From contig JAUYDL010000029.1 in NCBI GenBank assembly GCA_030691865.1, positions 4,721-68,720 of the forward strand: a DNA stretch of 64,000 nucleotides, written 5' to 3'. Each line of letters begins with the position of its first letter. Within the stretch, counting starts at the first letter, position 1. The translations under genes were made by a program, and so were the position numbers. The DNA is from Candidatus Omnitrophota bacterium. GTDB lineage: Bacteria > Omnitrophota > Gorgyraeia > Gygaellales > Profunditerraquicolaceae. A model generated the notes under the pieces. The model was given only the letters and a program-made list of their open reading frames with translations. It was not told where the DNA came from and did not search any database. Shown in pieces: positions 17,359-43,850 of the stretch.

Positions 17359-18393
17359 CTATTTATTTTTCCTTAATAGGCGTTTAGCGGCTTTCCGCTC
17401 AATCATTTTTACCGAGCGATCAAAATCGCTGTCTTTTGCATCGCAGGCTTTGATCCTTTTGAGATTAAATTTATCATATTGTACTTCCGCATGCCCAAGC
17501 GCAAGCTCATGAGATATCTTGCCTGCATGAGCGAGAATTTCCCGCTCATTAAGCGACAAAAATCCGTCAAGCTTTTTAATCCAGTCCTTCATATACATGG
17601 GGGTACGGCGCATCGCCTGGCCTTCGGCGAAAATCAGATATTGCTCTACGAGATTGTTGAGCGCCAAAAGTTCTTGTCCATAAAGATAATTCTTCGCGAT
17701 GGCGACATCGTGTTTGCGAACTTTAGCGCCTCGCCAGCTGGTAAGCCCCATGTTCGTCTTTGAGCTGTCAGCGCGTTCGCGTATAATTTCCGCGGCTGTT
17801 TTGCCACTGATTGCCCAATGCATTTTATTCTGCACCGTTTTAAAGAAGTCAATGCTGATTTCCAATGCAGGATTGTAATCTACGCTAGTAGCATAAATGT
17901 CCGTTATCTTCTGATAGAACCGGCGCTCGGAGGTACGAATATCCTGAATACGCCGGACAACCTCATCAAAATAATCAAAGGGTTGATCGGGATTTTTAAG
18001 CCGTTCGTCATCAAGCACAAAACCTTTTACAATATATTCCCGCAAATGCTGGGTTGCCCATTGACGAAACCGCGTGGCGATATGTGATTTAACACGATAT
18101 CCAACAGAAATAATCACATCAAGATTATAATATTCAATTTTTCTTTTGACCGGCCGCGTACCTTCTATTTGAACTGTCAAGAATTCCTTGACAGTTGCCT
18201 TAGGTATTAATTCTCCTTCTTCGTAAATATTTTTAACATGGACGCTGATGTTCTGCTTAGTAGTCTGAAATAGTTCCGCCATCAACTGCTGAGTCAGCCA
18301 GACCGTCTCATTTTGAAAACGAACATCAATTTTAATTTTTCCGTCTTCAGTCTGATAAATTATCAACTCGGACTTATTTTCTTTATTTTCCAC
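17359..18393 (-). CDS. RhuM-family (virulence-protein RhuM-like) protein.
   Basis: The N-terminus reads IIYQTEDGKIKIDVRFQNETVWLTQQLMAELFQTTKQNISVHVKNIYEEGEL, characteristic of the RhuM family. Confidence 0.6.
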   Translation of the reverse strand: MENKENKSELIIYQTEDGKIKIDVRFQNETVWLTQQLMAELFQTTKQNISVHVKNIYEEGELIPKATVKEFLTVQIEGTRPVKRKIEYYNLDVIISVGYRVKSHIATRFRQWATQHLREYIVKGFVLDDERLKNPDQPFDYFDEVVRRIQDIRTSERRFYQKITDIYATSVDYNPALEISIDFFKTVQNKMHWAISGKTAAEIIRERADSSKTNMGLTSWRGAKVRKHDVAIAKNYLYGQELLALNNLVEQYLIFAEGQAMRRTPMYMKDWIKKLDGFLSLNEREILAHAGKISHELALGHAEVQYDKFNLKRIKACDAKDSDFDRSVKMIERKAAKRLLRKNK

Positions 18394-18513: not shown

Positions 18514-19458
18514 CTATTTATTCTTCCCTAAAATTTCACCTGCGGCAAGCTTATGCCCGATAATAAAATTCTGTGCCGACATACGCTTTCCCGCTTCCAG
18601 CTGCAGCTCTTTAATTTCTAAAAAACCTCTTGCGCAAGCCACAACAATACCATGCTTGTCCGCCCTGATCACTTCACCAACTGAAGGCTTATGGCTAGGG
18701 AATATCGGTAGGACTTGCGCCTGAAATATCTTAAGCAACTTCTTGCGATAACTGGTAAATGCCCCCGGCCAGGGGATAACCCCTTTTATCTGGTTATGAA
18801 TATTCACGGCAGAAGTATCCCAATCAATTAAACCGATCTCTTTTTTCATCTTTGGGGCATAGACAACCTTATCTTCATCTTGTTCCACCAAACGATAATC
18901 CCGGTTATCAATAATCACCAACACCTCCATTAAAAGCTGGGCTCCGCATTGACTCAGTTTCTCTTCTAAACTAACCGCAGTATCCCGATCTTCGATTTTT
19001 ATTTCCTTCTGCATAATTACCGGGCCGGAATCCATCTTTAGAGTTACATAGATAATCGTAATCCCGGTTTTCTTTTCCCCATTAATTATCGCCCAGTTAA
19101 TCGGAGCCGCCCCCCGGTAACGCGGCAGAAGCGAAGCGTGGATATTAATCGGCATAATCTTGGGAATATCTAAGATCTCTTGAGACAATATCTGGCCATA
19201 GGCGACGATTACAAAAAGATCCGCATCCAGGCTCTTTAAAAATTTTACGCTTTCTTTACTATTGATATTTTCCGGCTGAAAAGTTTTAAGCCCGGCGGCA
19301 ATAGCCGTGTTTTTAACATCGGTAGCCGCTAACTGTAAATGCCGGCCTTTCTGTTTATCCGGCTGGGTAACCACACAGGCCAACTCATGCTGGCTTTTAA
19401 TTAAAACCTCAAGAACCGAAACACCAAAATGTGCACTTCCGAAGAATATTATTTTCAT
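18514..19458 (-). CDS. fmt: Methionyl-tRNA formyltransferase.
   Basis: MKIIFFGSAHFGV... NIHASLLPRYRGAAPINWAIINGEKKTGITI. Confidence 0.85.
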   Translation of the reverse strand: MKIIFFGSAHFGVSVLEVLIKSQHELACVVTQPDKQKGRHLQLAATDVKNTAIAAGLKTFQPENINSKESVKFLKSLDADLFVIVAYGQILSQEILDIPKIMPINIHASLLPRYRGAAPINWAIINGEKKTGITIIYVTLKMDSGPVIMQKEIKIEDRDTAVSLEEKLSQCGAQLLMEVLVIIDNRDYRLVEQDEDKVVYAPKMKKEIGLIDWDTSAVNIHNQIKGVIPWPGAFTSYRKKLLKIFQAQVLPIFPSHKPSVGEVIRADKHGIVVACARGFLEIKELQLEAGKRMSAQNFIIGHKLAAGEILGKNK

Positions 19459-19459
19459 C

Positions 19460-21304
19460 TTAGATAGGGTCTACATCCACCGTCACTATTATACCTGAAA
19501 AATGCCCTTCTTTTAAGTGTAATTTTAAAAAATGGCTGGCTTTCTCTACGTTAGGCGCGCGCATTAATATCTGATAATAAAAATTCTCCCGCAATTTAGC
19601 CGGTTGCCCGGGATTAAGGGAGAGCATTTTTATACTGCTTGTCTTAATCTTATTTAATTTTTCAAATAAATCACAAGCAGACTGCTTAACCTTTTCCAAA
19701 CTTTCCCCTCTTAATCTAACCAGGATCATATGTTTAAAAGGTGCAAAGTTTAGCTGTTTGCGTTGTTTTAATTCCTCTTTATAAAACAACCTTGAATCAT
19801 TCTTAATCAAAGCCTGAAAGCAATGATGGTTAACATTAGCGCTTTGAATAATTATCGACTTAGATGTTAAACTAACTAACCCCATCAGCAGATTAAAAGT
19901 TTTCTCAGCAGCGCGAAAATCCACCCGGTTAAGCGAATTATCTATCGCCAAAACCCCTATTAAATCAAAATTTATTTCCTGGTGTTTAATTACCGAGCTG
20001 GTAGCAACAAAAATATCCACATTCATACGCGCCTGTGGGAAAATTCTCGCCAGTTCGCTTTCTACCTTTTCTGTGCCGATACCTGAATATTTAATATAAC
20101 CGGCATTACAATGTGGACAGATTTTAGGCACCGGCATTTTAAAATTGCAATGATGACATTTTAATTTATCATCATCAAAATGAAATACCAGATTAATATT
20201 GCAGCGCGGACATTTCAAAGCCACCTGGCAATTATGACAAGCAACCGTGGTAGCAAAACCTTTGCGATTAATCACCAATAAGACCTTACCTTTTTCAGCC
20301 AGGGCCATCTGTATCGCATCCAGCAAAAACTTTGAAAACATGGATTTGTTTTTTCTTTCCGCATAAGCCAGCCGGCGCACATCGATAACCTTAACAAGCG
20401 GGTAAGCCAGTTTTGAAGGAATAACTTCAAGATCCAGTTTACCTTTTTGCAACAGATAAAAACTTTCCAAAGATAAACAATGACTGCCCAGAATAACTCC
20501 TGAACCCTGAATCTGTGCGCGCATCAATCCAACTTCCCGGGCATGATAATGCGGAACCTGCTCCTGCTTATAAACCTGATCCTCTTCTTGGTCGATAATC
20601 ATCAACCCCAGATTATTCACGCAAGAGAAAATACTTGAGCGCGTACCGGCCACCACGCAGTAATCTGCTTGTCTGATTTTTTCCCAAATCTCCAGTTCAT
20701 TAGGCTGTTTGCGGAAGGAGATAAAAACTTCTTTCCCCAAACTCTTCTCCAATTTCTCTTTTACCCTTTCCACTGCTGCGATATTACTGCACAGAATAAT
20801 TACCGACTTTTTAGCCGCCAGAACTTTCTTAATCTCCCTTAGGTAAACCGGTATTCGGTCAAACCCCTGAACAAAAAGGGGACGTTTCCCTTTCTCAAGA
20901 GAAAGGGGACGGTTCTCTTTTTCTGAAACCTTATTAAGAGAACCGTCCCCCTGATTTAAGTCTTTCCCCTTCCTCAACTCATCCGGTAACGCCGCTTCAA
21001 TTGCCTCTCCCCAGGAACAACAATAATATTCCGCCAGCTCCTTAGTCAACTGAAGCATCGAATCATCCAAGATCGGGAATAAATCAATAACCGAGATAAT
21101 CTCTTTTAATTTTTTGATTTTAGTTTTATTATTTAATTCTACTACGTAGGCAACTTCTTTTTTGTTGCGGAAATTTACCCAAACTCTTGCTCCAATGTTA
21201 ACTTTGGCTTCCAGGCCCACCGGAACAAGGTAATCAAACGGGCCATCAATCGGCAGGCCCAACACCACATTAGCGTATAACACTAGCCAACTCCTTACAA
21301 GCAA
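19460..21304 (-). CDS. priA: Primosomal protein N' (PriA) homolog with degenerate helicase motifs and an in-frame REP-derived insertion.
   Basis: The N-terminal domain (GLPIDGPFDYLVP) and the Cys4 zinc fingers (CHNCQVALKCPRC... CHHCNFKMPVPKICPHC) match PriA. Where GVTGSGKTEVYL is expected it reads GFDRIPVYL. DEEH is replaced by DQEE, SAT by SHC, and QVAGRAGR by GLVSLTSK. Confidence 0.8.
   Translation of the reverse strand: MLVRSWLVLYANVVLGLPIDGPFDYLVPVGLEAKVNIGARVWVNFRNKKEVAYVVELNNKTKIKKLKEIISVIDLFPILDDSMLQLTKELAEYYCCSWGEAIEAALPDELRKGKDLNQGDGSLNKVSEKENRPLSLEKGKRPLFVQGFDRIPVYLREIKKVLAAKKSVIILCSNIAAVERVKEKLEKSLGKEVFISFRKQPNELEIWEKIRQADYCVVAGTRSSIFSCVNNLGLMIIDQEEDQVYKQEQVPHYHAREVGLMRAQIQGSGVILGSHCLSLESFYLLQKGKLDLEVIPSKLAYPLVKVIDVRRLAYAERKNKSMFSKFLLDAIQMALAEKGKVLLVINRKGFATTVACHNCQVALKCPRCNINLVFHFDDDKLKCHHCNFKMPVPKICPHCNAGYIKYSGIGTEKVESELARIFPQARMNVDIFVATSSVIKHQEINFDLIGVLAIDNSLNRVDFRAAEKTFNLLMGLVSLTSKSIIIQSANVNHHCFQALIKNDSRLFYKEELKQRKQLNFAPFKHMILVRLRGESLEKVKQSACDLFEKLNKIKTSSIKMLSLNPGQPAKLRENFYYQILMRAPNVEKASHFLKLHLKEGHFSGIIVTVDVDPI
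20875..20951. repeat. REP-like element, copy 5, inserted in-frame inside priA.
   Basis: GGGGACGTTTCCCTTTCTCAAGAGAAAGGGGACGGTTCTCTTTTTCTGAAACCTTATTAAGAGAACCGTCCCCC. It encodes ...GDGSLNKVSEKENRPLSLEKGKRPL..., which is absent from canonical PriA. Confidence 0.7.
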
Positions 21305-22361
21305 ACGGCTTTTTAATCTCCCTAATCCTTTGCCTTAACTCCAGGATTTTTTGCGGATTGTTTTTTAAATCCAAAACAAAATTTTTTATTTCCTCGATGT
21401 TTTTAGGGCTTACTACAATACCATATTCTGCTAAAGCTTCTACATTAGCTGTTTCCTGACCCGGGATAGCGCTAATAAATATCACCGGCAATTCCATAAT
21501 CAATACCTCGGTAATTGTAGCGCCTCCGGGCTTTGTAACTATACAATCAGAAACCGCCATTAATTCTTGAGCGTTATCCACAAACCCAAAGACTTTCACA
21601 TTCTCTAAATTTCGCTTTTGCAGGCGGGCAAAAAGTTTTTTATTTCTTGCGCAAACTACCAGCACCTGTGCCTCACACATAAGGCTTTCGGAAATTTCCT
21701 CAAGCGGCCCGGAACCAAATGATCCGGTCATAAGCAAAACTGTAAAACTATTTGGATTTATCCCAAATTTTTCTGCCAACTGAGCTCTATTTTGAGTTTT
21801 AACAAAACTAGGGCTAAACGGGATACCGGAAGCCTGAATTTTTTGTTCCTCTACCCCCATATTTAATAATTTATCCTTGGTTAACCTTGAGGCAACAACA
21901 TAAAGATCCGTGCCGTTTGAAACCCAAAACGGATGCACCCCGAAATCTGTAATTACCGTAATCAGTTTTGCCTGAACTTTATTTCTTAGTTTTAAATTGG
22001 CGGCCAGCTCCGAATTTAGAAAATGCGTAGAAATAATAAAATCAAACTCCTCTTTAATCAGATAATTCACGAACTTACGGAAGCTAAAATAATTTACAAT
22101 TAAAGAAGATTTACGGCTAATCCAGCGGGTCAACTTAAATTCAGTCATCCAAAAAAATAACCCCCAAAGCCAGGTGGCATAATTTACTAAAAACGGATAT
22201 CCGGAATTATAGCAAAAGCGTAAAATTGGATTGCCAAAAGGAAGGATGTCTACCAGCTTAAGTTTTAGGTCCTGGCGATTGTTTTTTAAATAATCATATG
22301 CTGCCTCAGCTGCCCTGCGATGGCCGGCACCTGCTGAAACATAAGTAACTAATACTTTCAT
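21270..22361 (-). CDS. GT28-family glycosyltransferase (MGDG-synthase/UgtP/MurG-like).
   Basis: MKVLVTYVSAGAGHRRAAEAAYDYL...; the C-terminal half shows a MurG-like GT-B fold. It overlaps the priA start by 35 nt. Confidence 0.6.
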   Translation of the reverse strand: MKVLVTYVSAGAGHRRAAEAAYDYLKNNRQDLKLKLVDILPFGNPILRFCYNSGYPFLVNYATWLWGLFFWMTEFKLTRWISRKSSLIVNYFSFRKFVNYLIKEEFDFIISTHFLNSELAANLKLRNKVQAKLITVITDFGVHPFWVSNGTDLYVVASRLTKDKLLNMGVEEQKIQASGIPFSPSFVKTQNRAQLAEKFGINPNSFTVLLMTGSFGSGPLEEISESLMCEAQVLVVCARNKKLFARLQKRNLENVKVFGFVDNAQELMAVSDCIVTKPGGATITEVLIMELPVIFISAIPGQETANVEALAEYGIVVSPKNIEEIKNFVLDLKNNPQKILELRQRIREIKKPFACKELASVIR

Positions 22362-25101: not shown

Positions 25102-26172
25102 TTAACTTAATAACCTTGCCGCTGCATCAAACACCGCATCAACACTAACCTGCCTCAAACACTCCCTATCCTTTTCACAAGCCGGCATACGGAAATTCTT
25201 ATAACACGGCCGACAATCCATATCCCATTTTAAAACTACATGGTTCCTATTCTCAGGATACGGCCCATAAACCAGCTCGCTTACCGGGCCAAATATCGAA
25301 ACTGTCTTTACCCCCAAAGCCGCTGCCATATGCATCGGCCCGCCATCATTAGTAATCAGCAAATTACAATTTTTAATTACTGCCGGCAAAATCTCTAAGC
25401 TTGTTTTACCCACCAAATCTATCGGCTTATTGACCATGGCATGCACGATTACCTCTGCAATCTTTCGCTCTGATTCATCTCCCAAGATTACCACTTTGGC
25501 GCCGCACTTATCAATCAACTTATTCGCTACTTGGGCAAACTTTAATGCCGGCCAATGCTTTATCGCGGCATCCTTACCCCAACTACCGCCGGCACCGGGG
25601 AAAATACTAATAACACAATCAGTTTCTTCGATTCCAACTGAAGCCAAAATATTTTTTGCCTTCAATTCATCGTTTAAAAGAACGGTCAAAAACAGATTTT
25701 TATCATTAACCGGAATATTTAAGAATTTAAGCAGCTCTAAATAATACTCCACCACATGCTTATCATGATAACCATCCAGATCAACACGCTCAGTAAGAAA
25801 CCTACCCCTCCCCTTATAATTGAATCCAATCCGCTTCCTAATCCCGATTATTTTTGCCAATAGACTATAGCGGTGATCAAGAGAGAAATCAAGACAAATA
25901 TCAAAATGCTCTTTTTTTATCTCCCAAATGAGTCTAATGGCGCTCCATAATCCCTTAAAAAAAGACTCCTGATAAATTTTCTTAAGGTCCCCACGCGAAA
26001 GAGCAAAAACTTTATTAATTTGGGGGTTGTTTTCCAGAATCGGCTTAACCCGCAAATTTGACCAGTAACCGATAAAACTATCCGGATGCTGTCGCTTCAG
26101 CGCCTTGATTACCGGTGTGGTAAATAAAACATCCCCAATGCCGAAAGGATTAATAATTAATATTTTTTTCAT
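25102..26172 (-). CDS. ADP-heptose:LPS heptosyltransferase (GT9).
   Basis: MKKILIINPFGIGDVLFTTPVIKALKRQHP... with the GT9 C-terminal domain. Confidence 0.75.
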   Translation of the reverse strand: MKKILIINPFGIGDVLFTTPVIKALKRQHPDSFIGYWSNLRVKPILENNPQINKVFALSRGDLKKIYQESFFKGLWSAIRLIWEIKKEHFDICLDFSLDHRYSLLAKIIGIRKRIGFNYKGRGRFLTERVDLDGYHDKHVVEYYLELLKFLNIPVNDKNLFLTVLLNDELKAKNILASVGIEETDCVISIFPGAGGSWGKDAAIKHWPALKFAQVANKLIDKCGAKVVILGDESERKIAEVIVHAMVNKPIDLVGKTSLEILPAVIKNCNLLITNDGGPMHMAAALGVKTVSIFGPVSELVYGPYPENRNHVVLKWDMDCRPCYKNFRMPACEKDRECLRQVSVDAVFDAAARLLS

Positions 26173-26849
26173 ATGAGGACGTCGGCCAAATCCGATTGAT
26201 CGCTATCTTTCAACACATCAATAATTCTCTTGCGTAATTTAGGAGAAAAACCTATAAAGAAAAACTTCAATTTATCTGCTTCACCTTTATCAAGCAATGC
26301 CCTTATAATCCTAATTGCCATATCTAAGTCTTTGATCTTTTTGTCCTTTTTTGGCCGCCTTTCTGATACAATCAACTTATGTAAAGCAAAAAGGGCAGGA
26401 TGAGGCAAATTAATTCTAATGTCCTCAACTACAATATTTATAAGTTTCGCTGTAAGTAAATTAAGAAGCCTTAAGGGTTGAGCATTAATCCCAAGCTGGC
26501 CCAATTTATAAGGCTTATTTAAACCCGCGCCTTTCTCTGTTACCAGAAACTCCAGAATAAGCTCAGGATGATATAATTGGATATAACCGTCAGACCCCTT
26601 AAAATCAATAACAAAACCAAGCCCATCCAACAATTTTTCAATATCAATTTTGTTTTTTATTACAAGTGGCAGGGGAACAAATAAATCAAGGTCTCTTGTT
26701 GTTATAGAAGTGACATACTCTACATCTGAAAAATATTCTTTATAGAAAGGAACACACCAACTCCCAACAAGAACTAAATGTTTTAATATGCCGGAACTAT
26801 CCAGTCTTTTTAAGACTTCAACGCATAATTTATACTGGCTGCTTTCCAC
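26169..26849 (-). CDS. Pol-beta-fold nucleotidyltransferase (AbiEii/GSU2403-like), the toxin-like partner of the upstream small ORF.
   Basis: LVLVGSWCVPFY...TRDLDLFV fits the hG[GS]...[DE]h[DE]h pattern. The protein is a paralog of the 31180..31971 product. It overlaps the upstream ORF by 20 nt. Confidence 0.5.
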   Translation of the reverse strand: MESSQYKLCVEVLKRLDSSGILKHLVLVGSWCVPFYKEYFSDVEYVTSITTRDLDLFVPLPLVIKNKIDIEKLLDGLGFVIDFKGSDGYIQLYHPELILEFLVTEKGAGLNKPYKLGQLGINAQPLRLLNLLTAKLINIVVEDIRINLPHPALFALHKLIVSERRPKKDKKIKDLDMAIRIIRALLDKGEADKLKFFFIGFSPKLRKRIIDVLKDSDQSDLADVLI

Positions 26850-28720: not shown

Positions 28721-29581
28721 TTACGGCTTTTTCAAAATCTCGTTAAACCGCTCAAAAACTTTATCGAGGTTGAAACTCTCACCTACCCGGATAACAGGTA
28801 TCAATTCTGTTTCTATCTGCTTGTGAAGCAATTCTTTTGATTGTTGATCCAAACCGAAATTATGAGAATAATTCGCTCTGTATTTCTCAGCTTCAAGCTT
28901 CTTTTTGAATATGGAAAGGAAGTGCCTGTCTTTAAAGTCAAACTTGGCTTCCGATATAAACCATAAGTCATAATAGTCGCGAATTGCCACATCTTTTCTT
29001 GTGATTGCGGCTTTGAGTTTTTCTGCCACGGCCTCGTTTAATGTAAGCGATAATATCTTATTTTTAGGAATTAAATCCTCTCCCGTAAATGGGTCCTTAT
29101 AAAAATGCGTGATTACATTATGAACGGGCTTGTCGATAGGAGTTTGCCTGAGTGAAATTTCTAGTTTTATCTTCTCATCCTTTCCTGAGATAAATGACGG
29201 ATAGAAAATGTTGAACACATACTGAGTAGAATTATTAAATCCTTCTCCTTCAGGCCTTTCACTTTTTAACTCCAGTAGTTTCAGCAATTCTGGCATCTTT
29301 TCTCTTATTGGGGTGATTGCACGGGATCGCCTAGAACGGGTTTGGAGGCCTTCAGGGTTAAAGTATGTAAAGTCAATGTCTTCGCTTAACCTGTGATAGT
29401 TAAGGTGAATCTTATTTAAAAGCGTCCCGCCTTTAAAAACGATTTTATCGCTTAAATGTGATTCGACGCTGTTTAAGATAAGCGTTAAATAATAATCTTT
29501 TTCGATGGTCTCGAGCCTAAAGTTATATTTTTCCGCAATAAACGGTATTATTTTCTCAAGCTTATCCCTATCCATTGACAA
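28721..29581 (-). CDS. AbiEii-family nucleotidyltransferase toxin (type IV TA / abortive infection, DUF1814-like).
   Basis: IEKDYYLTLIL...IVFKGGTLLNKIHLNYHRLSEDIDFTY. Confidence 0.75.
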   Translation of the reverse strand: MSMDRDKLEKIIPFIAEKYNFRLETIEKDYYLTLILNSVESHLSDKIVFKGGTLLNKIHLNYHRLSEDIDFTYFNPEGLQTRSRRSRAITPIREKMPELLKLLELKSERPEGEGFNNSTQYVFNIFYPSFISGKDEKIKLEISLRQTPIDKPVHNVITHFYKDPFTGEDLIPKNKILSLTLNEAVAEKLKAAITRKDVAIRDYYDLWFISEAKFDFKDRHFLSIFKKKLEAEKYRANYSHNFGLDQQSKELLHKQIETELIPVIRVGESFNLDKVFERFNEILKKP

Positions 29582-30356
29582 TAATTCTCCATCTTTTATC
29601 AGTTTTGCCTTTTTTTGCCTCTGTATCGTATAAGAAAGAATGCCCTTTTATTCCCGCGTCGACTTTGCTAAGCAGTCTTTGGGACACTCCAAGCCTTTCC
29701 AGGAAATATCCCATACGCCTGCGAATGATACAAACGGGATATCGCGCGACATAATCCACGAAGACTGCCATATCCATATTGCTAAGCTGTTCAGTTAAAA
29801 TACTAAATCCTTTTTTCACACCATAAAAATCAAACGCGTCTATCAACGCGCGTTCCTTAGAAGCAAAAACAATATCCTCCTTATCTATTCTGCGCGTTTC
29901 CAAGCCATACATTCTATTGGGCAGCACCTTGATAAGCTTATACCTGATACCGCCAACTTTTTTCTCAAGTGAATATTTTTCATTCACTACATGTATCATT
30001 TGCGCGACTTGATCGGTAAAGCCATATGAATTAAAAACGCTGGAGTATCCTATATAATAATTCGCTCCTCTGGCTAACGCTTTTGCAATCACATATTCGT
30101 TACCCGCCCACTTGCCTCCGGGAGCTTTCATCGGAATAAACAAATACACATTTTTGACAATATTCCTTAACCTATTTTTAATCAAAAGCCGCCTGATAAG
30201 ATAGTCCACCTTGCTTTCATCGTCATAGAAAGAAATAATATCCGCGCGAGTATAGACCTCTTTACCCTCATACTCTAACCTAGCCAAAAGGCCTATTTCG
30301 TTCGGAGTAAGCCCATTATATTTGTTTACTTTTGGTTTCATATTTCTGCCTCCCAA
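29568..30356 (-). CDS. AbiEi-family antitoxin / transcriptional regulator.
   Basis: 262 aa with an N-terminal wHTH-like region and ...IVFASKERALIDAFDFYGVKKGF.... It overlaps abiEii by 14 nt. Confidence 0.65.
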   Translation of the reverse strand: MGGRNMKPKVNKYNGLTPNEIGLLARLEYEGKEVYTRADIISFYDDESKVDYLIRRLLIKNRLRNIVKNVYLFIPMKAPGGKWAGNEYVIAKALARGANYYIGYSSVFNSYGFTDQVAQMIHVVNEKYSLEKKVGGIRYKLIKVLPNRMYGLETRRIDKEDIVFASKERALIDAFDFYGVKKGFSILTEQLSNMDMAVFVDYVARYPVCIIRRRMGYFLERLGVSQRLLSKVDAGIKGHSFLYDTEAKKGKTDKRWRIIVNG

Positions 30357-31179: not shown

Positions 31180-31971
31180 TCAATCCTTTGCAATGCTTCT
31201 CTTGAGCCTCTTAAATCTATCAAATATGTCTTGGCGCACATCATGGATATATTCATCAGGACCGTTTTCCTGTTCTACCAAAAGACAGCCTCGACTTGAA
31301 ACCCTTTCAAAAAACTTGTTTATATTATCCGGGACGCCCATTAAATACCCTTTTTCTCTGTACTGGGATATTTCCTTCAAAATCAAGTCAATATCAGGCG
31401 CGTACCGCAAGATGAAGTACATATAATACAAATCTTTAGCCTGTTTTTCCTTGTTCTCCCTATCGATAAAAGTCGCTCCCTTGTGATACAAAAAAGCTGA
31501 CGGTTTCGGACAATTAATAAGATAGCCTTTGTTCTTTTTCATAGCGTAAATGTTTATCGATATCCGGTGTTTTAAGAGGAAATCAAATTTGTCGATTTTA
31601 TTTATTTGTATCTGCTGGCCTACCATTTTCTCGATCGCCTTGATATCCGCGGTAGGATAAGTAATAAACTCTACCGGGACTTTTTCTTTATACAGCACAA
31701 CAGGAAACATCCTGTCCATCTTCAGATGACGTTCTTTGTAATCCAAAGAAGAAAGTGTTTCAAAAATTGTCTTTGAATAATCTCCGGTAACGGATTGATC
31801 TACGCCAAAATCTATATCAACCGTAGTCACCGGATTTCTGACGGATGTTTTCCAAATAAAATTTGAATAGATATACGGCATCCATCCACCGACAAGCGTG
31901 AGGTCAGGAAGATAATCACGCATGTCTTCAAGCACGTTAAAAAACACTGCTTCAATTTTTTCAAGATTCAT
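31180..31971 (-). CDS. Pol-beta-fold nucleotidyltransferase, a paralog of the 26169..26849 product (AbiEii/GSU2403-like).
   Basis: LTLVGGWMPYIY...TTVDIDFGV. It overlaps the upstream regulator gene by 11 nt. Confidence 0.5.
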   Translation of the reverse strand: MNLEKIEAVFFNVLEDMRDYLPDLTLVGGWMPYIYSNFIWKTSVRNPVTTVDIDFGVDQSVTGDYSKTIFETLSSLDYKERHLKMDRMFPVVLYKEKVPVEFITYPTADIKAIEKMVGQQIQINKIDKFDFLLKHRISINIYAMKKNKGYLINCPKPSAFLYHKGATFIDRENKEKQAKDLYYMYFILRYAPDIDLILKEISQYREKGYLMGVPDNINKFFERVSSRGCLLVEQENGPDEYIHDVRQDIFDRFKRLKRSIAKD

Positions 31972-32656
31972 ACAAACCCGTCCCCTTCTCTTCTAAAACT
32001 TTTTTCAGATAATCAGCGTGCTCGCGCCCGCGGGGCTTATAATTATAGAGGTCTAAATAAAGCTGCAAATTAGAAACAACCTTATATCCCTTTATTGCCT
32101 GAGCGCCATAAAATACGCTCTTCTTGTAATGCGGGCGAATAATATGAATGTTCCCACCTCTTACAAGCTCCTTTAAATCAAGTTGTTGGCGTAACTCGAG
32201 AACATCCTTTTTCCAGTCTTCAGGTTCCAAATACAGGCATACCTGATCCGTTACTACAAAAGAAGTTACCAAATTGGCGCCAGAATGGAGTGTGAACGCG
32301 TATTGTTTGTCTTTCAGATAATCTTTAAGCTTCGGTAAAATATTTTTATCTGGAGAATAATAGGTATCGACTTCGTTTAATTCAAAGCGGTACTCTGTTA
32401 CCCAATCGCTGATTAGCTCATCTATATTCGTAAGAAGCGCATAGCTATTCGGCCCACGTTTGACCCGCTCGATGTAGCCCTTTTTTGCCATGGTTTCAAG
32501 CGCTCCTTGTGCCAACCCAATGCTCACCCCATTATCTCCTGTAAAGTCGCGCGTAACCCATTTCTTCTGTGGATCAGACAGCATCTTCCTCAAGATAAAA
32601 GTCGCTTTATCAGCAAAAATATTTTTCATATTCGTTGGGTTATTCATAATGTTCAC
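31961..32656 (-). CDS. wHTH regulator, AbiEi-like antitoxin partner of the 31180..31971 nucleotidyltransferase.
   Basis: 231 aa with an N-terminal wHTH-like region (SIGLAQGALETMAKKGYIERVKRG). It is coupled to the NTase gene. Confidence 0.45.
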   Translation of the reverse strand: MNIMNNPTNMKNIFADKATFILRKMLSDPQKKWVTRDFTGDNGVSIGLAQGALETMAKKGYIERVKRGPNSYALLTNIDELISDWVTEYRFELNEVDTYYSPDKNILPKLKDYLKDKQYAFTLHSGANLVTSFVVTDQVCLYLEPEDWKKDVLELRQQLDLKELVRGGNIHIIRPHYKKSVFYGAQAIKGYKVVSNLQLYLDLYNYKPRGREHADYLKKVLEEKGTGLYES

Positions 32657-37457: not shown

Positions 37458-39518
37458 CTACAACAAAATCTTATAGATCCGAGCTAACGAGTTACTAAAA
37501 ACTAATTTGAAAGATTCAGCATGTCCAGATGCCCAATCATCTTCTATGGGGAATTTCTTTAAATCATTGGATTCGTTATTTAATTTATGCGGAAGGGCAA
37601 TAAATAAGTAATCCACCTTATCTTTTCTTAGATTATTTAACCAGCTGCCATAATTTTTTTCCTTACGATAAAGGCCATCAGCATAAAAATGCGCCAGCGG
37701 AGGCTTATCATTCACCGAAACATATAACACGCTGTTTTTTAGCTTACTTCCAAAAAATGGATAAAACTCACTGCGTCCAGTATAAGCAATTTTCATTCCA
37801 CTACCGGTATTTTCATTAAGCCATTTCCAAGCGCGGCCAATATCAACCTGCGCTGATTCCTTTCCTTTAAAGGATATCGCATAACGATTAAATTCTTCTC
37901 TGTTGTATTTCTCGTTTAAAATAAATAAAACAACAAAAGTAATAATAACCATCACTAACAACGCCTTTAGTGAAAGTATGTTTCTAAGATTGCGCATTAA
38001 ACTCTTTCTAAAAATAAATGCAATAGCAAATAACAATAAAGCTAACAAAAATGAGAAGATTAATTCATTTCTTTTTGCCAATTCAGCCGCTGAACTAAAT
38101 ATGCAGATAAAACCTAAAAAGGTTAGATATTTTTTACCGTATTTAAATTTATCTAAAAATACTGCCACAGCGATCAACCCTATACCTAAATACGGAAATA
38201 AATACCTTATCCACAGAGCTTTAATGACAAAAAAATACATACAAAACATTATTAACGGCAGCATAAATAACAAAATATATTCAATACTATAATTAAACTT
38301 GCGCTTAAAGAATGTGGCCACGATAAAGGGTATTATGGTCCCTGGAATAACAAAAGCAATAAACTGTAAACCCAGCCCTTCGCTAAAAAACATATCCTTA
38401 ACGCTAAACTGTTCCCAAGGAATAAATAGCCTGCTAAAACCGGCTTTATCGATAATCCCAGGGAAGATTGTCCTGCCAAACAATGATACCGAAACCGGAT
38501 ACAATGGATTCCCCGTAAGAATAAATGTTCTAAAGTAGCTAAATGATCCAAAAATAAAAAACGTAGCCGCAACAACAGAAAGAACAAAAAATAAACTTCT
38601 ATAATTTTCTTTCTTGGCATTGCTGATTATAAAATAGGCAGCTAAAGGCAACAATGTAACTGACCAAAAAACATTTAAAATCTTGGTTCCAACAAATATC
38701 CCTAATGTAACCCCTAAAATAAGAGCGTTTTTGTAATTGAATTTCTTGTTCAAAATTAATAAATAATTTAAAACCATCAAAAATAAAGCAGCGCACATAA
38801 CATCAATCTGCGTGCCATTCCTGATTTGCTTAAACACATTAGGTATAATGGCCCATAAAAAACTAACCAACAAAGCCGTGTTGTTTTTTAGAGAGTACTT
38901 TCTTAATATTGAATATATAGCCAATATGCCCAATAGATAAAATACAGCCTGCCCGACATCAGCGATAAAAGCATTTTTAAGCGGAAGCATCCACCAAAAA
39001 AACAATAGCTCAGCATTCATAGGATAGTAGGTTAAAGCGGTCAAATCTGCTGAGATTGGCCAAGCACCAAAAACAGAGATCGGATTTATAAGGTTACCGT
39101 TCTTTAACCAAAAGGCAGGAAAACTAAGATGATACTGATGGCTCTCCGGGCAAATCGGAGGATTAATAAGATTGACCCAAAGCTTTATAATAAAAAAACC
39201 CAAAAATATCGCTATTGCTAAAAGCAATATCTTATTTTCAAATATAAAATTTACCTTAGGTATTTTAAATTCAAAACGCGGTTTTCTCCGAGTAAATAGA
39301 TACACTATTAAAAACACCGTTAAATGTAAAAAAATAACATTTGGTAGATAAAGTATCTGCGAGAGTCCCAAAAATAATTCTACAATAATAACCTGGGCAA
39401 AAAAAAGTGTAAACCACGAAAGACAAAAATCCGCCAACGTCTGTTGTAAAAATAAAATAGAACTAAAATAATAAGAACTCAATCCCACTAAAGCATTAAG
39501 TAAAATAAATACTACCAT
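37458..39518 (-). CDS. Large polytopic membrane protein, a putative GT-C-fold glycosyltransferase (ArnT/PMT/YfhO-like).
   Basis: 686 aa with many transmembrane helices. It lies adjacent to a polyprenyl-phosphate-type GT2 gene. Confidence 0.4.
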   Translation of the reverse strand: MVVFILLNALVGLSSYYFSSILFLQQTLADFCLSWFTLFFAQVIIVELFLGLSQILYLPNVIFLHLTVFLIVYLFTRRKPRFEFKIPKVNFIFENKILLLAIAIFLGFFIIKLWVNLINPPICPESHQYHLSFPAFWLKNGNLINPISVFGAWPISADLTALTYYPMNAELLFFWWMLPLKNAFIADVGQAVFYLLGILAIYSILRKYSLKNNTALLVSFLWAIIPNVFKQIRNGTQIDVMCAALFLMVLNYLLILNKKFNYKNALILGVTLGIFVGTKILNVFWSVTLLPLAAYFIISNAKKENYRSLFFVLSVVAATFFIFGSFSYFRTFILTGNPLYPVSVSLFGRTIFPGIIDKAGFSRLFIPWEQFSVKDMFFSEGLGLQFIAFVIPGTIIPFIVATFFKRKFNYSIEYILLFMLPLIMFCMYFFVIKALWIRYLFPYLGIGLIAVAVFLDKFKYGKKYLTFLGFICIFSSAAELAKRNELIFSFLLALLLFAIAFIFRKSLMRNLRNILSLKALLVMVIITFVVLFILNEKYNREEFNRYAISFKGKESAQVDIGRAWKWLNENTGSGMKIAYTGRSEFYPFFGSKLKNSVLYVSVNDKPPLAHFYADGLYRKEKNYGSWLNNLRKDKVDYLFIALPHKLNNESNDLKKFPIEDDWASGHAESFKLVFSNSLARIYKILL

Positions 39519-41050: not shown

Positions 41051-42451
41051 TTATCTAAAGAATGAAATTATTTTTTGTAAAATAATACTAGCATGAGATA
41101 TTGTCCTTATATTTCTAAGATTATGTAAAATTATTTTTGGTCTCAAATAAAATCTTAAAAAAAACCAACGATACCAATAACGTAACTGCTTATCAGTTAG
41201 TTTCGGCGGAATATAAGAAAAGTTCCCATATTGCATCTTATTAGAAATAATATCTTTTTCGCTAATTTCTCCACTAGCAATTAATCTATCTGTAATCGGA
41301 GTGCCCGGTAAAGGAATAAATCTAGTTAAGCTTATCCTGACTAAAGGTAGAGACGAAACAAACTTTATAGTCCTACGCAATGTTGCTAAGGTCTCCAGCG
41401 GATAACCCACCATAACAAAACCAATTATATCAATTCCATGTGCATAGATAAGTTTTATTTTTTCTGTTATCATCTCTAAGCTTATCCCCTTGCCGATATC
41501 TTTTAATATTTCAGGATCCCCGGATTCAATCCCCACCGCAACTTCATAGCAACCGGATTCTTTCATAGCGACAAGTAACTTTTCATCTAAAGTATCTAAC
41601 CGCAGCCCATTAGGACAGGTCCATAATAAATCCAAACGCCGTTTAATCAATTCATTAGCAAACTCTAAAGCCGCACTGTTAGGAAAAGTAAAATTATCAT
41701 CTATAACCTGAAATTCCCTAAGACCGTACTTATTCTTTAGATATTCTAATTCATCAACCACGCTAACCGGATCTCTTCTCCTGACCTTGTAACCGGTAAT
41801 ATTCCTGCTCCCGCAAAAAGAACAACGATACGGACAGCCCCGCGATATCATAATTGGCAATACCGGCAACCTTCTATAAAAAAATCCATGTACTGCATTA
41901 CCATATAGCCGAGGATTAAGTTCATCCCAATCCGGCGAGCCGATAGCATCAAGATCCTCAACATACTCATGATGAGATACTAATATCTCATCATTTTCTC
42001 TCCAGGCAAGATTAGGAATTTGCTCTAATGAGCTTTTATCCATCCTCCCGCTATTAAACAACTCCAGAAGCCTTACAACTGCCACCTCCCCTTCTCCGAC
42101 AACCAGGAAATTAACTTCTTTTAGCAAATTAAATACAGATTTAGGATTTGAAGAAGGCGCCGGCCCGCCAATAATTATCGGAATATCCAAAGACTCTTTT
42201 CGCACTGCCCGGACATATTCTTTAATTTTCCCCAGGTCCATGTCAAAAGCCTGAAAACCTATAAATCTGTAATCCTTAATTAATATATGCTTAAATAATT
42301 CTTCCGGCAAAACTCCTAAAACATTACAATCAAAAATACGTACAGTAAAACCATTCTTTTTAACGTAATTAGCGATAAACCCTAATCCTAATGGCGGAGT
42401 GTATTGAAGATTATAGCTGCTCAAAGGTTTAATTAATAATAAATCGTACAT
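41051..42451 (-). CDS. Cobalamin-binding (class B) radical SAM enzyme.
   Basis: An N-terminal B12-binding-like domain, then CPYRCSFCGS (CxxxCxxC). Confidence 0.75.
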   Translation of the reverse strand: MYDLLLIKPLSSYNLQYTPPLGLGFIANYVKKNGFTVRIFDCNVLGVLPEELFKHILIKDYRFIGFQAFDMDLGKIKEYVRAVRKESLDIPIIIGGPAPSSNPKSVFNLLKEVNFLVVGEGEVAVVRLLELFNSGRMDKSSLEQIPNLAWRENDEILVSHHEYVEDLDAIGSPDWDELNPRLYGNAVHGFFYRRLPVLPIMISRGCPYRCSFCGSRNITGYKVRRRDPVSVVDELEYLKNKYGLREFQVIDDNFTFPNSAALEFANELIKRRLDLLWTCPNGLRLDTLDEKLLVAMKESGCYEVAVGIESGDPEILKDIGKGISLEMITEKIKLIYAHGIDIIGFVMVGYPLETLATLRRTIKFVSSLPLVRISLTRFIPLPGTPITDRLIASGEISEKDIISNKMQYGNFSYIPPKLTDKQLRYWYRWFFLRFYLRPKIILHNLRNIRTISHASIILQKIISFFR

Positions 42452-42452
42452 G

Positions 42453-43850
42453 CTAATACCGTTTAAGAAATAAATTGAATGATCTTTTAACCTTGTTCAA
42501 TGTTTTTGCCAGCCTCTTGCTTCCCAAAACCTTCTTCTGGACTAATGCAACCGGAATTAAATCCCAAAAATATTTAACGGTATAAGAGATTTTAATTCCG
42601 CAATGATTCACTAACTTTCGCCATCTATTTAAAGTCTTCATACTATGTTCTCTAGTATAATAATAGACATCTCCACTTTTAACCCAGATCTTGGCATCAA
42701 ATTTATTTTCCTTAATTAAATCGGAATAAACTTTGGTTCCCGGAAGCACATAAAGCATCGAAGCCCCCGCTCCATGCGTTGACCTTATGTTAGCATTGGC
42801 GTAATCCACTGTTTCTTTTATCGTTGCCTCGGTTTCACCGGGAGTCCCCACACAGAAAAATGCCGAAGTAGTCATCTTGTCCGTAAACTTAGCGCAGATA
42901 TCAAAAGCGGTTTTAACCAATTCCCGGGTAATCTTTTTATTTATTTTACCAAGTATATTCTCGGATAAAGTTTCTACTCCCCAGGTTATATGCCTACATC
43001 CTGAATCCGCCAATTTAGCCACCATCTCTTCATTCACCGGAGTAACTCTACAGGAAATCGCATATTCTATATCTAGTTTTTTTAACACCTCTGTAATCTT
43101 AATCGTCCTATCTATTCCCAGATTAAATGTATCATCGTGAAAAAAAATACGCTTTGCCCCCATTCTTTTCACATATTCCACTTCCTGAGCTATTCTTTCA
43201 GGGGAATTCATCCGCACGTTTTGCCCCCAAAAAGATGAGGTGGAACAAAACGAGCAGTTGACCGGACAGCCCCGCGAAGTTATTAAGTATGCGAGCTTCT
43301 TTTGCCTAATTTCTTCTGCAGCGTAAGAATAATCCGGTAAAGCTAATTCATCTAGATCCTTAACCAGTCCAAAAACTCTGTTGGATAAAAAACCCTTATC
43401 CTTATCTTTGTATACTAAACCACTAATAGTTGATAGGTCCCCGCCTTGCTTGAGAGCCTGGCAAAGCCCAGGCAATGACCTCTCTCCTTCAGACTGAATT
43501 ATAAAATCTAAATCATGGTAAAAATATTTAAAAGTCTGTTCATAAAGAGTAGCCGGATGAACTCCGCCCAGCACAACCAAGATCTTCCTATCTATTTTCT
43601 TTATTTGTCTTAATAGCTTAAACGCGCCCCAACGGTTAAAAGAATTAAATGATATCCCGACCAAATCCGGCTTTTTAGTCCTAACTGTAGATAAAAATAA
43701 CCTAATACTCGGATTAAATTCTTTTCCATTATAATTATAAATATCGACTTCATGCTGCTTATTTAAGGAAGCTGAAAGATACCCTAGGCCCAAAGGATAA
43801 CCTTTTAAATTTAACTCTGAAGTTGGAGGATAAACCAGGGCTATTTTCAT
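42453..43850 (-). CDS. Cobalamin-binding (class B) radical SAM enzyme.
   Basis: An N-terminal B12-binding-like domain, then CPVNCSFCST. Confidence 0.75.
   Translation of the reverse strand: MKIALVYPPTSELNLKGYPLGLGYLSASLNKQHEVDIYNYNGKEFNPSIRLFLSTVRTKKPDLVGISFNSFNRWGAFKLLRQIKKIDRKILVVLGGVHPATLYEQTFKYFYHDLDFIIQSEGERSLPGLCQALKQGGDLSTISGLVYKDKDKGFLSNRVFGLVKDLDELALPDYSYAAEEIRQKKLAYLITSRGCPVNCSFCSTSSFWGQNVRMNSPERIAQEVEYVKRMGAKRIFFHDDTFNLGIDRTIKITEVLKKLDIEYAISCRVTPVNEEMVAKLADSGCRHITWGVETLSENILGKINKKITRELVKTAFDICAKFTDKMTTSAFFCVGTPGETEATIKETVDYANANIRSTHGAGASMLYVLPGTKVYSDLIKENKFDAKIWVKSGDVYYYTREHSMKTLNRWRKLVNHCGIKISYTVKYFWDLIPVALVQKKVLGSKRLAKTLNKVKRSFNLFLKRY

What the first reader, a model, noticed from the sequence alone, without database searches (positions are those of the whole stretch)
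19460..21304. PriA homolog with degenerate Walker A, DEEH and motif VI; a predicted helicase-dead primosome protein
Aligned by eye to E. coli PriA, the protein keeps the N-terminal DNA-binding region, the VYL/GTRS/YHAR helicase-core landmarks and the Cys-rich zinc-binding region. Several catalytic motifs are altered: GVTGSGKTE becomes GFDRIP (Walker A lost), DEEH becomes DQEE, SAT becomes SHC, and the QVAGRAGR arginine finger is absent. The protein has only 614 residues. It is either an ATPase-inactive PriA that acts as a scaffold or loader only, or a decaying gene.
Basis: partly seen in the sequence, partly recalled or inferred. Interest (0 to 1): 0.55.

Follow-up and report, generated by a model that had tools for sequence, protein, structure and literature searches.

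The report
Motor-dead PriA replication-restart protein, Omnitrophota
This is the replication-restart protein PriA of a Candidatus Omnitrophota bacterium that has lost the sequence motifs for its ATP-driven helicase motor yet is kept under strong selection in hundreds of species, a second, independent natural case after the Deinococcus PriA 'pseudohelicase'.

Summary
The minus-strand ORF 19460..21304 (true start probably GTG 21283, 607 aa) is a PriA ortholog. It passes TIGR00595 and has 3'BD, Cys-rich and C-terminal Pfam domains; its predicted fold matches PriA structures. It has no DEAD or Helicase_C hit. Motifs I, II, III, V and VI are degenerate; the motif IV segment and winged-helix region are missing. 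Walker Lys aligns to Arg, as in inactive E. coli K230R.

It is not decaying: dN/dS is 0.10-0.18, like neighbouring fmt. The motif-less form occurs in about 75 clusters (50% identity) and in all 80 inspected of 390 GTDB species loci.

Omnitrophota also encode intact PriA (about 666 aa) and intermediates. All occupy the same slot (HAD, MGDG-synthase, priA, fmt), so they are positional orthologs. At equal fmt divergence the 3'BD is equally conserved; the motif I-Ia segment falls from 72% to 11% identity.

Best explanation: an ATP-independent fork-recognition and helicase-loading scaffold. Loss of ATPase is inferred, not assayed. A second intact priA elsewhere in the genome could not be excluded. 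I found no report of this for Omnitrophota: a new member of a known kind, moderate interest.

The parts
19460..21283 (-). priA ortholog with degenerate helicase motifs. The probable true CDS is 607 aa from GTG 21283; the mechanical ORF extends to TTG 21304 (614 aa). Residue numbers below use the 614-aa ORF.
21291..21296 (-). AAGGAG Shine-Dalgarno, 7 nt upstream of the GTG start at 21283
   Evidence: read directly from the sequence
20984..21271 (-). 3' DNA-binding domain (aa 12-107). The pocket residues equivalent to Ec D17, Y18 and K61 are kept as D24, Y25 and K67.
   Evidence: Pfam PF17764, E=2.5e-27. Y25 is invariant and D24 nearly invariant across the deep clade.
20879..20983 (-). Short low-confidence linker (aa 108-142) in place of the roughly 90-residue winged-helix domain of E. 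coli PriA
   Evidence: pLDDT below 50 for residues 118-139
20417..20878 (-). RecA-like lobe 1 (aa 143-296). The fold is retained but the ATP site is degenerate.
   Evidence: AF2 pLDDT about 90; Foldseek matches PriA structures 8fak and 6dcr
20849..20872 (-). Remnant of motif I / Walker A (aa 145-152, VQGFDRIP). Arg150 stands at the position of the Walker lysine.
20579..20593 (-). Remnant of motif II / Walker B (aa 238-242, DQEED instead of DEEHD)
20534..20572 (-). Aromatic-rich loop / motif IIa (aa 245-257, YKQEQVPHYHARE), conserved. P251 and Y253 are invariant in the clade.
   Evidence: Its role in contacting the fork junction is from PMC5175346.
20474..20488 (-). Remnant of motif III (aa 273-277, GSHCL instead of GSATP)
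19742..20416 (-). RecA-like lobe 2 (aa 297-521), lacking the roughly 25-residue motif IV segment
20108..20239 (-). Cys-rich region (aa 356-399). All four CxxC pairs are present and all eight Cys are invariant.
   Evidence: Pfam PF18319, E=7.9e-10
19970..20005 (-). Remnant of motif V (aa 434-445, ATSSVIKHQEIN)
19859..19882 (-). Remnant of motif VI (aa 475-482, GLVSLTSK). Both arginines are lost and the loop is shortened.
19466..19741 (-). PriA C-terminal domain (aa 522-613)
   Evidence: Pfam PF18074, E=5.8e-12
18514..19458 (-). fmt (methionyl-tRNA formyltransferase), 1 nt downstream of priA. This is the conserved syntenic partner.
21270..22361 (-). MGDG-synthase-like glycosyltransferase. Its end overlaps the priA start. 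This is the conserved upstream neighbour.

Best explanation
This gene is the PriA ortholog of a Candidatus Omnitrophota bacterium, and probably its only one. It has become a pseudohelicase.

Mechanism, largely inferred by homology:
- The 3'BD pocket, the aromatic-rich loop on lobe 1, the two-zinc Cys-rich region and the C-terminal domain still recognise abandoned replication forks or D-loops.
- These parts serve as a platform that recruits the replicative helicase DnaB, directly or through a loader, to single-stranded lagging-strand template.
- The two RecA-like lobes are kept only as a structural and DNA-binding scaffold. They can no longer bind or hydrolyse ATP, so the protein cannot unwind a duplex lagging arm.

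What is shown here: identity as PriA, absence of the motifs, purifying selection, clade-wide conservation, and positional orthology with intact PriA.

What is inferred: lack of ATPase, DNA binding, partner recruitment, and the absence of a second copy.
For: Identity as PriA:
- TIGR00595 scores 353.9 bits against a cutoff of 230.
- Pfam finds the 3'BD, CRR and CTD.
- PDB PriA chains match at E=2e-60.
- The AF2 model (pTM 0.72) matches PriA structures 8fak, 6dcr and 4nl4 at E=1e-36 to 1e-34; the next fold is Mfd at 3e-8.

Motor loss:
- There is no Walker A, and R150 stands at the K230 position.
- Walker B is DQEE. Motif III is SHC. The motif IV segment is deleted. The motif VI arginines and loop are lost.
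- E. coli K230R alone abolishes ATPase and helicase activity yet supports primosome assembly and near-wild-type growth (PMC5778457; PMC4504706).

Not decay:
- dN/dS is 0.10-0.18 for priA, against 0.09-0.15 for fmt and 0.11-0.22 for the upstream gene.
- All 120 closest relatives, about 75 clusters at 50% identity and all 80 GTDB species loci inspected, of 390 matched, keep the frame and lack the motifs.

Selective retention:
- Deep-clade invariant residues are Y25 and R40 (3'BD), P251 and Y253 (ARL), all 8 Cys, and CTD residues. None lies in the P-loop.
- At equal fmt divergence, 3'BD identity is 0.49 against 0.51 for an intact pair, while the motif I-Ia segment is 0.11 against 0.72.

Orthology:
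- Intact forms (L004 on complete chromosome CP070780.1, and L089), an intermediate (L088) and degenerate forms all lie in the slot HAD, MGDG-synthase, (UDG), priA, fmt.
- A crude NJ tree places the degenerate forms in one clade, reached through a grade of intermediates from intact Omnitrophota PriA.

Precedent: D. radiodurans PriA lacks ATPase and helicase activity but binds forks and DnaB.
Against: - No biochemistry exists for this protein, so loss of ATPase is inferred from motifs only.
- Whole genomes could not be scanned, so a second, intact priA elsewhere in the same genome is not excluded.
- The partner proteins of Omnitrophota (DnaB, DciA or DnaC, SSB) were not identified, and none lies in the window.
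- AF2 confidence is only moderate for lobe 2 and low for much of the CTD.
- The CRR and CTD are also less conserved than in intact lineages (0.38 vs 0.71 and 0.33 vs 0.48). Some partner-binding function may therefore have changed as well.
- The tree is a simple NJ tree without support values, and the domain-wise comparison rests on single pairs.
Confidence: 0.7

Rival explanations
1. It is a neofunctionalised paralog. The genome also carries an intact PriA elsewhere that performs replication restart, and this protein has a different DNA-binding or regulatory role.
For: Omnitrophota as a phylum encode both intact and degenerate PriA types. Whole genomes of degenerate-type organisms could not be searched.
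Against: - Intact, intermediate and degenerate forms occupy the same syntenic slot next to fmt in their respective genomes.
- There is one copy per assembly among the 80 GTDB loci, and no tandem copy within the 4 kb flanks.
- There is no second priA in the 64-kb window.
- No contig length is shared between the lists of degenerate-bearing and intact-bearing contigs. This is weak evidence.
- The existence of intermediates fits gradual decay of a single-copy gene.
Confidence: 0.1
2. It is still an ATPase or translocase that uses non-canonical residues, for example Arg150 in place of the Walker lysine.
For: An Arg at the Walker-Lys position is the commonest residue in the clade (52%). The second Glu of DEEH is 96% conserved. 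The RecA-like fold of lobe 1 is predicted with high confidence.
Against: - K230R abolishes ATPase in E. coli PriA (PMC5778457). The same Lys-to-Arg change is found in the inactive D. radiodurans PriA.
- The P-loop glycines and the Ser/Thr are gone, and these positions are highly variable across the clade (11% identity in the motif I-Ia segment).
- Both motif VI arginines are lost, and a motif VI glycine is deleted in all 75 representatives.
- The catalytic Glu of Walker B is Gln in this protein.
Confidence: 0.05
3. It is a decaying gene on its way to being lost.
For: Catalytic motifs are lost, there are two internal deletions, and it evolves faster than intact PriA at equal organismal divergence (0.40 vs 0.62 identity).
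Against: - dN/dS of 0.10-0.18 equals that of the flanking fmt gene.
- There are no frameshifts or stops in the 120 close relatives or in the 80 GTDB species loci inspected.
- Many residues are invariant down to 30% identity, including all 8 Cys.
- The gene has a good Shine-Dalgarno and a start codon overlapping the upstream gene, as in its orthologs.
Confidence: 0.02

Closest known systems
Deinococcus radiodurans / Deinococcus-Thermus PriA pseudohelicase (Lopper, Boone & Morrow 2015, PMC4504706)
   Same: Both are PriA orthologs whose Walker A and Walker B depart from consensus, including Lys-to-Arg at the Walker lysine. The loss is shared by a whole lineage and is not a single mutant. The expected outcome is retained fork binding without ATPase or helicase activity.
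   Different: - The origin is independent: the nearest intact relatives are Omnitrophota PriAs in the same genomic slot.
- The decay goes further here. The whole P-loop is unrecognisable and variable, motif III is lost, the motif IV segment is deleted and the motif VI loop is deleted.
- Intact, intermediate and degenerate orthologs coexist within one phylum.
- The Deinococcus protein was assayed; this one was not. I did not align a Deinococcus sequence here.
E. coli PriA K230R (priA300) and K230A/D variants
   Same: Arg stands at the Walker-lysine position. These variants are the laboratory proof that a motor-dead PriA still assembles primosomes and supports the PriA-PriB restart pathway (PMC5778457).
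   Different: - Those are engineered single substitutions in an otherwise intact helicase with a WH domain and PriB/DnaT partners.
- priA300 fails in the PriA-PriC pathway and in Mu transposition.
- Here the change is natural, multi-motif and accompanied by deletions. No priB or dnaT was seen in the window, and the rest of the genome was not searched.
Canonical PriA replication-restart helicase (E. coli / K. pneumoniae; PDB 4nl4, 6dgd, 8fak)
   Same: Both have the 3'BD, two RecA-like lobes, the CRR with 8 Cys, the CTD, the aromatic-rich loop, and a gene position next to fmt.
   Different: This protein has no helicase motifs I, II, III, V or VI, no motif IV segment and no WH domain. It is about 120 residues shorter.
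E. coli PriA winged-helix deletion protein (PDB 6dcr)
   Same: It is the second-best structural match (E=7e-36). Both lack the WH domain.
   Different: 6dcr is an engineered deletion that keeps all helicase motifs. WH-less but motif-intact PriAs are also natural and common, including the intact Omnitrophota form (WH region 25-38 residues). WH loss is therefore not what makes this protein unusual.
Actinobacterial PriA-like 'primosome assembly protein PriA' (NCBIfam PRK14873 subfamilies)
   Same: From my own memory, not tested here: UniProt flags some actinobacterial PriA entries as lacking detectable helicase domains. If so, motif-poor PriAs exist in a third phylum. NCBIfam names some PRK14873 models 'primosome assembly protein PriA', without the word helicase.
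   Different: The query scores far below the cutoffs of these models (43-179 bits against cutoffs of 812-1147), so it is not a member.

Membership tests
PriA (primosomal protein N' / replication restart protein; TIGR00595) | Whole-protein profile score above the curated cutoff | tested here: met
   TIGR00595 scores 353.9 bits against a cutoff of 230.35. The lineage-specific PRK05580 equivalog models are all far below their cutoffs (for example 429 against 813).
PriA (primosomal protein N' / replication restart protein; TIGR00595) | N-terminal 3' DNA-binding domain with the 3'-end pocket (Ec D17, Y18, K61) | tested here: met
   PF17764, E=2.5e-27. D24, Y25 and K67 are conserved, and Y25 is invariant in the deep clade.
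PriA (primosomal protein N' / replication restart protein; TIGR00595) | Cys-rich region with four CxxC pairs (two Zn sites) inserted in helicase lobe 2 | tested here: met
   PF18319, E=7.9e-10. C356, C359, C365, C368, C383, C386, C396 and C399 are invariant. Zinc binding itself was not tested.
PriA (primosomal protein N' / replication restart protein; TIGR00595) | PriA C-terminal domain | tested here: met
   PF18074, E=5.8e-12. AF2 confidence is low for parts of it.
PriA (primosomal protein N' / replication restart protein; TIGR00595) | SF2 helicase motifs I (GxGKT), II (DExH), III (SAT), V and VI (QxxGRxGR) | tested here: not met
   All are degenerate. There is no PF00270, PF04851 or PF00271 hit, whereas intact Omnitrophota PriAs have them.
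PriA (primosomal protein N' / replication restart protein; TIGR00595) | Overall PriA fold (3'BD, two RecA-like lobes, CRR, CTD) | tested here: met
   Foldseek matches 8fak_H at E=1.1e-36 (TM 0.65), 6dcr and 4nl4. Non-PriA folds start at 3.5e-8.
PriA (primosomal protein N' / replication restart protein; TIGR00595) | Orthology with bona fide PriA (same genomic slot) | tested here: met
   The slot HAD, MGDG-synthase, (UDG), priA, fmt is shared with intact PriA on chromosome CP070780.1 and on JAQVUX01, and with the intermediate. fmt is immediately downstream in 71 of 80 loci.
PriA (primosomal protein N' / replication restart protein; TIGR00595) | Winged-helix DNA-binding domain between the 3'BD and the helicase core | tested here: not met
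   About 23 residues stand in place of about 89. It is also absent from many motif-intact PriAs, so it is not universally defining.
PriA (primosomal protein N' / replication restart protein; TIGR00595) | DNA-dependent ATPase, 3'-5' helicase activity, and primosome assembly | not testable with these tools
   This requires purified protein.
PriA pseudohelicase (Deinococcus-Thermus type, PMC4504706) | Walker A lysine replaced (Lys to Arg), with Walker A and B off consensus across the lineage | tested here: met
   R150 aligns to K230. Across 75 representatives the position is Arg in 52% and Lys in 11%. Walker B His is replaced by Glu or Asp. The description of the Deinococcus motifs comes from the paper.
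PriA pseudohelicase (Deinococcus-Thermus type, PMC4504706) | No ATP hydrolysis and no duplex unwinding in vitro; retained ssDNA and fork binding; binding to cognate DnaB | not testable with these tools
   These were shown only for the D. radiodurans protein.
PriA pseudohelicase (Deinococcus-Thermus type, PMC4504706) | Common descent with the Deinococcus-Thermus degenerate PriA | tested here: inconclusive
   The nearest intact relatives are Omnitrophota PriAs in the same slot, and a grade of intermediates links them. This argues for an independent loss. No Deinococcus sequence was included in the tree.

The most novel reading that the evidence does not exclude
Loss of the PriA motor in a large Omnitrophota radiation is adaptive and not merely tolerated. 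Under this reading:
- The recurrent Arg/Trp pair at the former Lys-Thr of the P-loop fills the nucleotide pocket.
- This rewiring goes together with other changes in DNA-maintenance gene content, for example the loss of the UDG gene that neighbours intact priA.
Probability: 0.12. Interest if true: 0.6.

Novelty: new member of a known kind. Interest (0 to 1): 0.4.

Why it matters
[quoted passage not shown] This finding adds a second, probably independent and much larger exception. The motif-less form was seen in all 80 inspected loci out of 390 species-level matches, and in about 75 sequence clusters at 50% identity.

Omnitrophota contain intact, intermediate and fully degenerate orthologs in the same genomic slot. 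That makes the phylum a natural comparative series for two questions: what makes the PriA motor dispensable, and which surfaces are truly needed for fork recognition and helicase loading. The surfaces that stay conserved here are the 3'BD pocket, the aromatic-rich loop, the CRR cysteines and the CTD core.

There is also a practical point. Databases label these proteins 'primosomal protein N'' or even 'replication restart helicase PriA', which overstates what they can do.

Tried and rejected
- **Rfam scan of the window:** no hits.
- **Exact look-up of the identical NCBI protein P0001:** not on record, so the window's own assembly could not be identified.
- **Names for the nearest intact representatives:** cluster look-ups gave almost none. 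A homolog search with P0156 was needed to show they are Omnitrophota.
- **Locus search with a 55-sequence deep alignment:** A 12-sequence alignment worked.
- **First Walker A regex (G.GK[ST]):** it wrongly flagged the intact Omnitrophota clade ('GITASGKTE') as motif-less in the tree labels. This was corrected to [AG]x4GK[ST].
- **Two 'Walker A' regex hits in GTDB loci (ACHNCGK[ST]):** these lie in the Cys-rich region and are coincidental.
- **Second priA in the window:** tblastn with E. coli and intact Omnitrophota PriA found only this gene.
- **Literature:** I found no paper on an Omnitrophota PriA in the held library, and none of the 'pseudohelicase' papers besides the Deinococcus one concerns PriA. 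A search for mycobacterial PriA motif loss gave nothing usable, so the actinobacterial parallel stays a recollection.
- **Matching contig lengths between intact-bearing and degenerate-bearing contigs** as a proxy for co-occurrence: no matches, but this test has little power.
- **Alignment artefact:** considered and rejected, because HMMER, MAFFT and the structure search all agree.
Full report
**1. What is in the sequence**

A minus-strand ORF runs 19460..21304 (614 codons from a TTG).
- A perfect AAGGAG lies at 21296..21291, 7 nt upstream of a GTG at 21283.
- The 100%-identical NCBI protein is 607 aa, and orthologs start 'VLYA...'.
- The real CDS is therefore most likely 19460..21283 (607 aa). 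Residue numbers below refer to the 614-codon ORF.
- The gene's start overlaps the end of an MGDG-synthase-like glycosyltransferase gene. fmt follows 1 nt downstream.
- Every ORF of 150 aa or more outside gene shadows is on the minus strand, and GC skew is uniformly negative.

**2. It is PriA**

- Pfam finds PriA_3primeBD (aa 12-107, E=2.5e-27), the PriA zinc ribbon / Cys-rich region (aa 365-391) and PriA_C (aa 522-613). It finds no DEAD, ResIII or Helicase_C.
- NCBIfam TIGR00595 scores 353.9 bits against a cutoff of 230.
- Solved PriA chains from K. pneumoniae and E. coli match at E=2e-60.
- An AlphaFold2 model (mean pLDDT 75, pTM 0.72, lobe 1 about 90) matches PriA structures 8fak_H, 6dcr and 4nl4 at E=1e-36 to 1e-34. 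The next fold, Mfd, is at 3.5e-8.

**3. The motifs are really gone**

HMMER and MAFFT against E. coli PriA taken from NC_000913 agree:

| Motif | E. coli PriA | This protein |
|---|---|---|
| I (Walker A) | GVTGSGKTE | (F)VQGFDRIP |
| II (Walker B) | DEEHD | DQEED |
| III | GSATP | GSHCL |
| IV segment | residues 508-533 | deleted |
| V | GTQMLAKGHHFP | ATSSVIKHQEINF |
| VI | QVAGRAGRAG | GLVSLTSK, with a deletion |
| Winged helix | residues 110-198 | about 23 disordered residues |

Register by register, the Walker lysine K230 aligns to Arg150. [quoted passage not shown] The same Lys-to-Arg change is present in the Deinococcus-Thermus PriAs (PMC4504706).

What is kept:
- the 3'-end pocket residues of the 3'BD (D24, Y25, K67)
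- 'GTRS'
- the aromatic-rich loop YKQEQVPHYHARE
- all eight cysteines
- 'GIGTEK'
- the CTD

**4. It is not a decaying gene**

- The 120 closest database relatives (68-83% identity, about 600 aa, many named Candidatus Omnitrophota) all lack a Walker A.
- Nei-Gojobori dN/dS against three orthologs is 0.10-0.16 (dS 0.65-1.6). This is indistinguishable from the flanking fmt (0.09-0.15) and the upstream glycosyltransferase (0.13-0.22).
- An exhaustive search of 1.84 billion cluster representatives returned, among the best 150, about 75 full-length proteins of roughly 600-640 aa at 30-50% identity. All lack motifs I and VI. Every named one is Omnitrophota.
- A scan of one genome per GTDB species matched 390 loci, and the best 80 were kept. 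These come from 80 distinct assemblies and are all Omnitrophota by name or, for several TPA bins labelled 'uncultured Planctomycetales', by their Omnitrophota-type priA. None has a Walker A or motif VI in the core. fmt is immediately downstream in 71 and the MGDG-synthase gene upstream in 74.

**5. What selection keeps and what it released**

Across 75 degenerate representatives:
- The Walker Lys position is Arg in 52% and Lys in 11%.
- The following Thr is Trp in 57%.
- The first P-loop Gly is Asp in 57%.
- The motif VI arginines are lost, and one motif VI Gly is deleted in 100%.
- The second Glu of DEEH is kept in 96%.
- The aromatic-rich-loop positions equivalent to Ec 333 and Ec 335 are Pro and Tyr in 100%.

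In a 55-sequence alignment reaching 30% identity, the invariant residues are Y25, R40, P107, P251, Y253, R262, G349, the eight Cys, G410, D455, R515, P522, R532 and R572. None is in the former ATP site.

Identity at matched organismal divergence (fmt 48-50% identical), for an intact pair and a degenerate pair:

| Region | Intact pair | Degenerate pair |
|---|---|---|
| Whole PriA | 62% | 40% |
| 3'BD | 0.51 | 0.49 |
| Lobe 1 | 0.69 | 0.27 |
| Motif I-Ia segment | 0.72 | 0.11 |
| CRR | 0.71 | 0.38 |
| CTD | 0.48 | 0.33 |

These are single-pair comparisons. The pattern is relaxation focused on the nucleotide site, with unchanged constraint on 3'-end recognition.

**6. Ortholog or paralog?**

Searching with the nearest motif-intact representative (P0156) showed that Omnitrophota also encode a canonical PriA of about 666-675 aa. 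It has DEAD, ResIII and Helicase_C hits and the motifs GITASGKTE, DEEHE and QVAGRAGRG.

Gene order at each class of locus:
- **Intact, complete 1.43-Mb chromosome CP070780.1:** HAD, epimerase, GT2, MGDG-synthase, UDG, priA, fmt.
- **Second intact locus:** the same order.
- **Intermediate form (662 aa; motifs I and VI lost, motif IV segment kept):** MGDG-synthase, UDG, priA, then fmt after a two-gene insertion.
- **Degenerate loci:** HAD, MGDG-synthase, priA, fmt, galT-like x2, gap.

The three classes are therefore positional orthologs. A crude NJ tree puts the degenerate forms in one clade, reached through a paraphyletic grade of 645-680-aa intermediates from intact Omnitrophota PriAs. Some intermediates retain motif I but not VI, and others the reverse. 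That is what relaxed selection on the whole ATPase function would produce.

I could not scan whole genomes, so an ectopic intact copy is not excluded. Three observations argue against it, the last only weakly:
- There is none in the 64-kb window.
- There is one locus per assembly among the 80.
- No contig is shared between the two lists.

**7. Mechanism**

These points are established elsewhere:
- Motor-dead E. coli PriA still assembles primosomes and supports the PriA-PriB pathway, but not PriA-PriC.
- D. radiodurans PriA has no ATPase or helicase activity, yet binds ssDNA and forks with near-E. coli affinity and binds DnaB.
- The aromatic-rich loop contacts the fork junction.
- In E. coli PriA the CRR swings to encircle a single-stranded lagging strand and licenses partner recruitment, whereas a duplex lagging strand must first be unwound (PMC13594977 abstract).

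These points are my inference for the Omnitrophota protein:
- It uses the CRR and CTD to recruit DnaB or its loader.
- It can act only on forks or D-loops that already expose single-stranded lagging-strand template. Any duplex remodelling is left to other helicases or is not needed.

I put about 0.85-0.9 on 'no ATPase or helicase activity' and about 0.7 on the whole statement.

**8. Comparison with the known, and novelty**

The concept of a PriA pseudohelicase is published for Deinococcus-Thermus. The field's review lists Deinococcus as the exception. I found no paper on Omnitrophota PriA in the held library.

From memory only: some actinobacterial PriAs are also flagged as lacking helicase domains. 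I did not test that.

This is thus a new member of a known kind. It is probably independent in origin and more extreme in its decay. It is unusually rich in species and comes with intact and intermediate orthologs in the same phylum. Interest is moderate (0.4): a PriA specialist would find it useful but not astonishing.

**9. Context**

The rest of the window holds:
- glycolysis genes (gap, pgk, tpi) and an acyl-CoA dehydrogenase/ETF set
- a long surface-glycan cluster with B12-radical-SAM enzymes
- several toxin-antitoxin-like pairs
- a RhuM-family insertion

No replication partner genes are present.

Noticed in passing
L004:9313-10017, L089:5342-5992, L088:5210-5929, compared with the window and 85 degenerate-type loci: A UDG-family (uracil-DNA glycosylase) gene sits between the MGDG-synthase gene and priA in both intact-PriA loci and in the intermediate locus. 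tblastn finds it nowhere in the window or in any of the 85 degenerate-type loci. This may be correlated loss of a DNA-repair neighbour, but only 3 loci represent the UDG-positive side.
   Followed up: partly
window 17359-18393 (-): A RhuM-family 'virulence protein' gene (Pfam E=2.8e-111) is inserted between fmt and the galT-like genes. It is absent from that position in the orthologous loci L002, L003, L005, L006 and L007. Local GC is slightly raised (0.454 against about 0.41).
   Followed up: partly
window 26169-26849, 28721-30356, 31180-32656 (-): AbiEii-toxin, AbiEi-antitoxin-like and NTP_transf_8 nucleotidyltransferase genes are scattered inside the glycan-biosynthesis region. They are probably type IV toxin-antitoxin or abortive-infection modules. 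Related AbiE or HEPN/NTase pairs occur at the equivalent place in L002 and L003.
   Followed up: no
window 37458-39518 (-) and 50489-52870 (-): Two large ORFs (686 and 793 aa) have no Pfam hit at E<=1e-5. They are embedded in a co-directional sugar-modification cluster that also holds three B12-binding radical-SAM genes (41051-42451, 42453-43850, 47661-49334), NeuB, a TPP enzyme and a DegT aminotransferase.
   Followed up: no
L002 compared with L003 (two NCBI assemblies, GCA_028715785.1 and GCA_028716245.1): priA is identical at the protein level, with only 5 synonymous differences (dS 0.013). The genes on either side differ much more (fmt dS 0.14, MGDG-synthase dS 0.37). This looks like a recent recombination patch covering priA.
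   Followed up: no
Representatives P0165, P0197, P0225, P0227, P0257 and others: The 645-680-aa intermediate PriAs lost motifs in different orders. Some keep GxGKT but lack motif VI, and others keep DEEH but lack motif I. This suggests several parallel decays after selection on the ATPase was relaxed. Only one of them carries a taxon name (Omnitrophota).
   Followed up: partly
L010, L034, L036, L037, L040, L041, L058, L064, L068, L070, L072, L079, L080, L085, L086: These genome bins are titled 'uncultured Planctomycetales' or 'Planctomycetales bacterium', yet they carry the Omnitrophota-type degenerate priA at 47-81% identity to the window's protein (the 80-locus synteny counts are). Their taxonomic labels are probably wrong or coarse.
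   Followed up: no
window 1-64000: Essentially all genes are on the minus strand, and GC skew is negative throughout (-0.06 to -0.29). The whole window therefore lies on one replichore with genes co-directional. GC drops from about 0.42 to about 0.36 after roughly 36 kb, where the glycan cluster begins.
   Followed up: no
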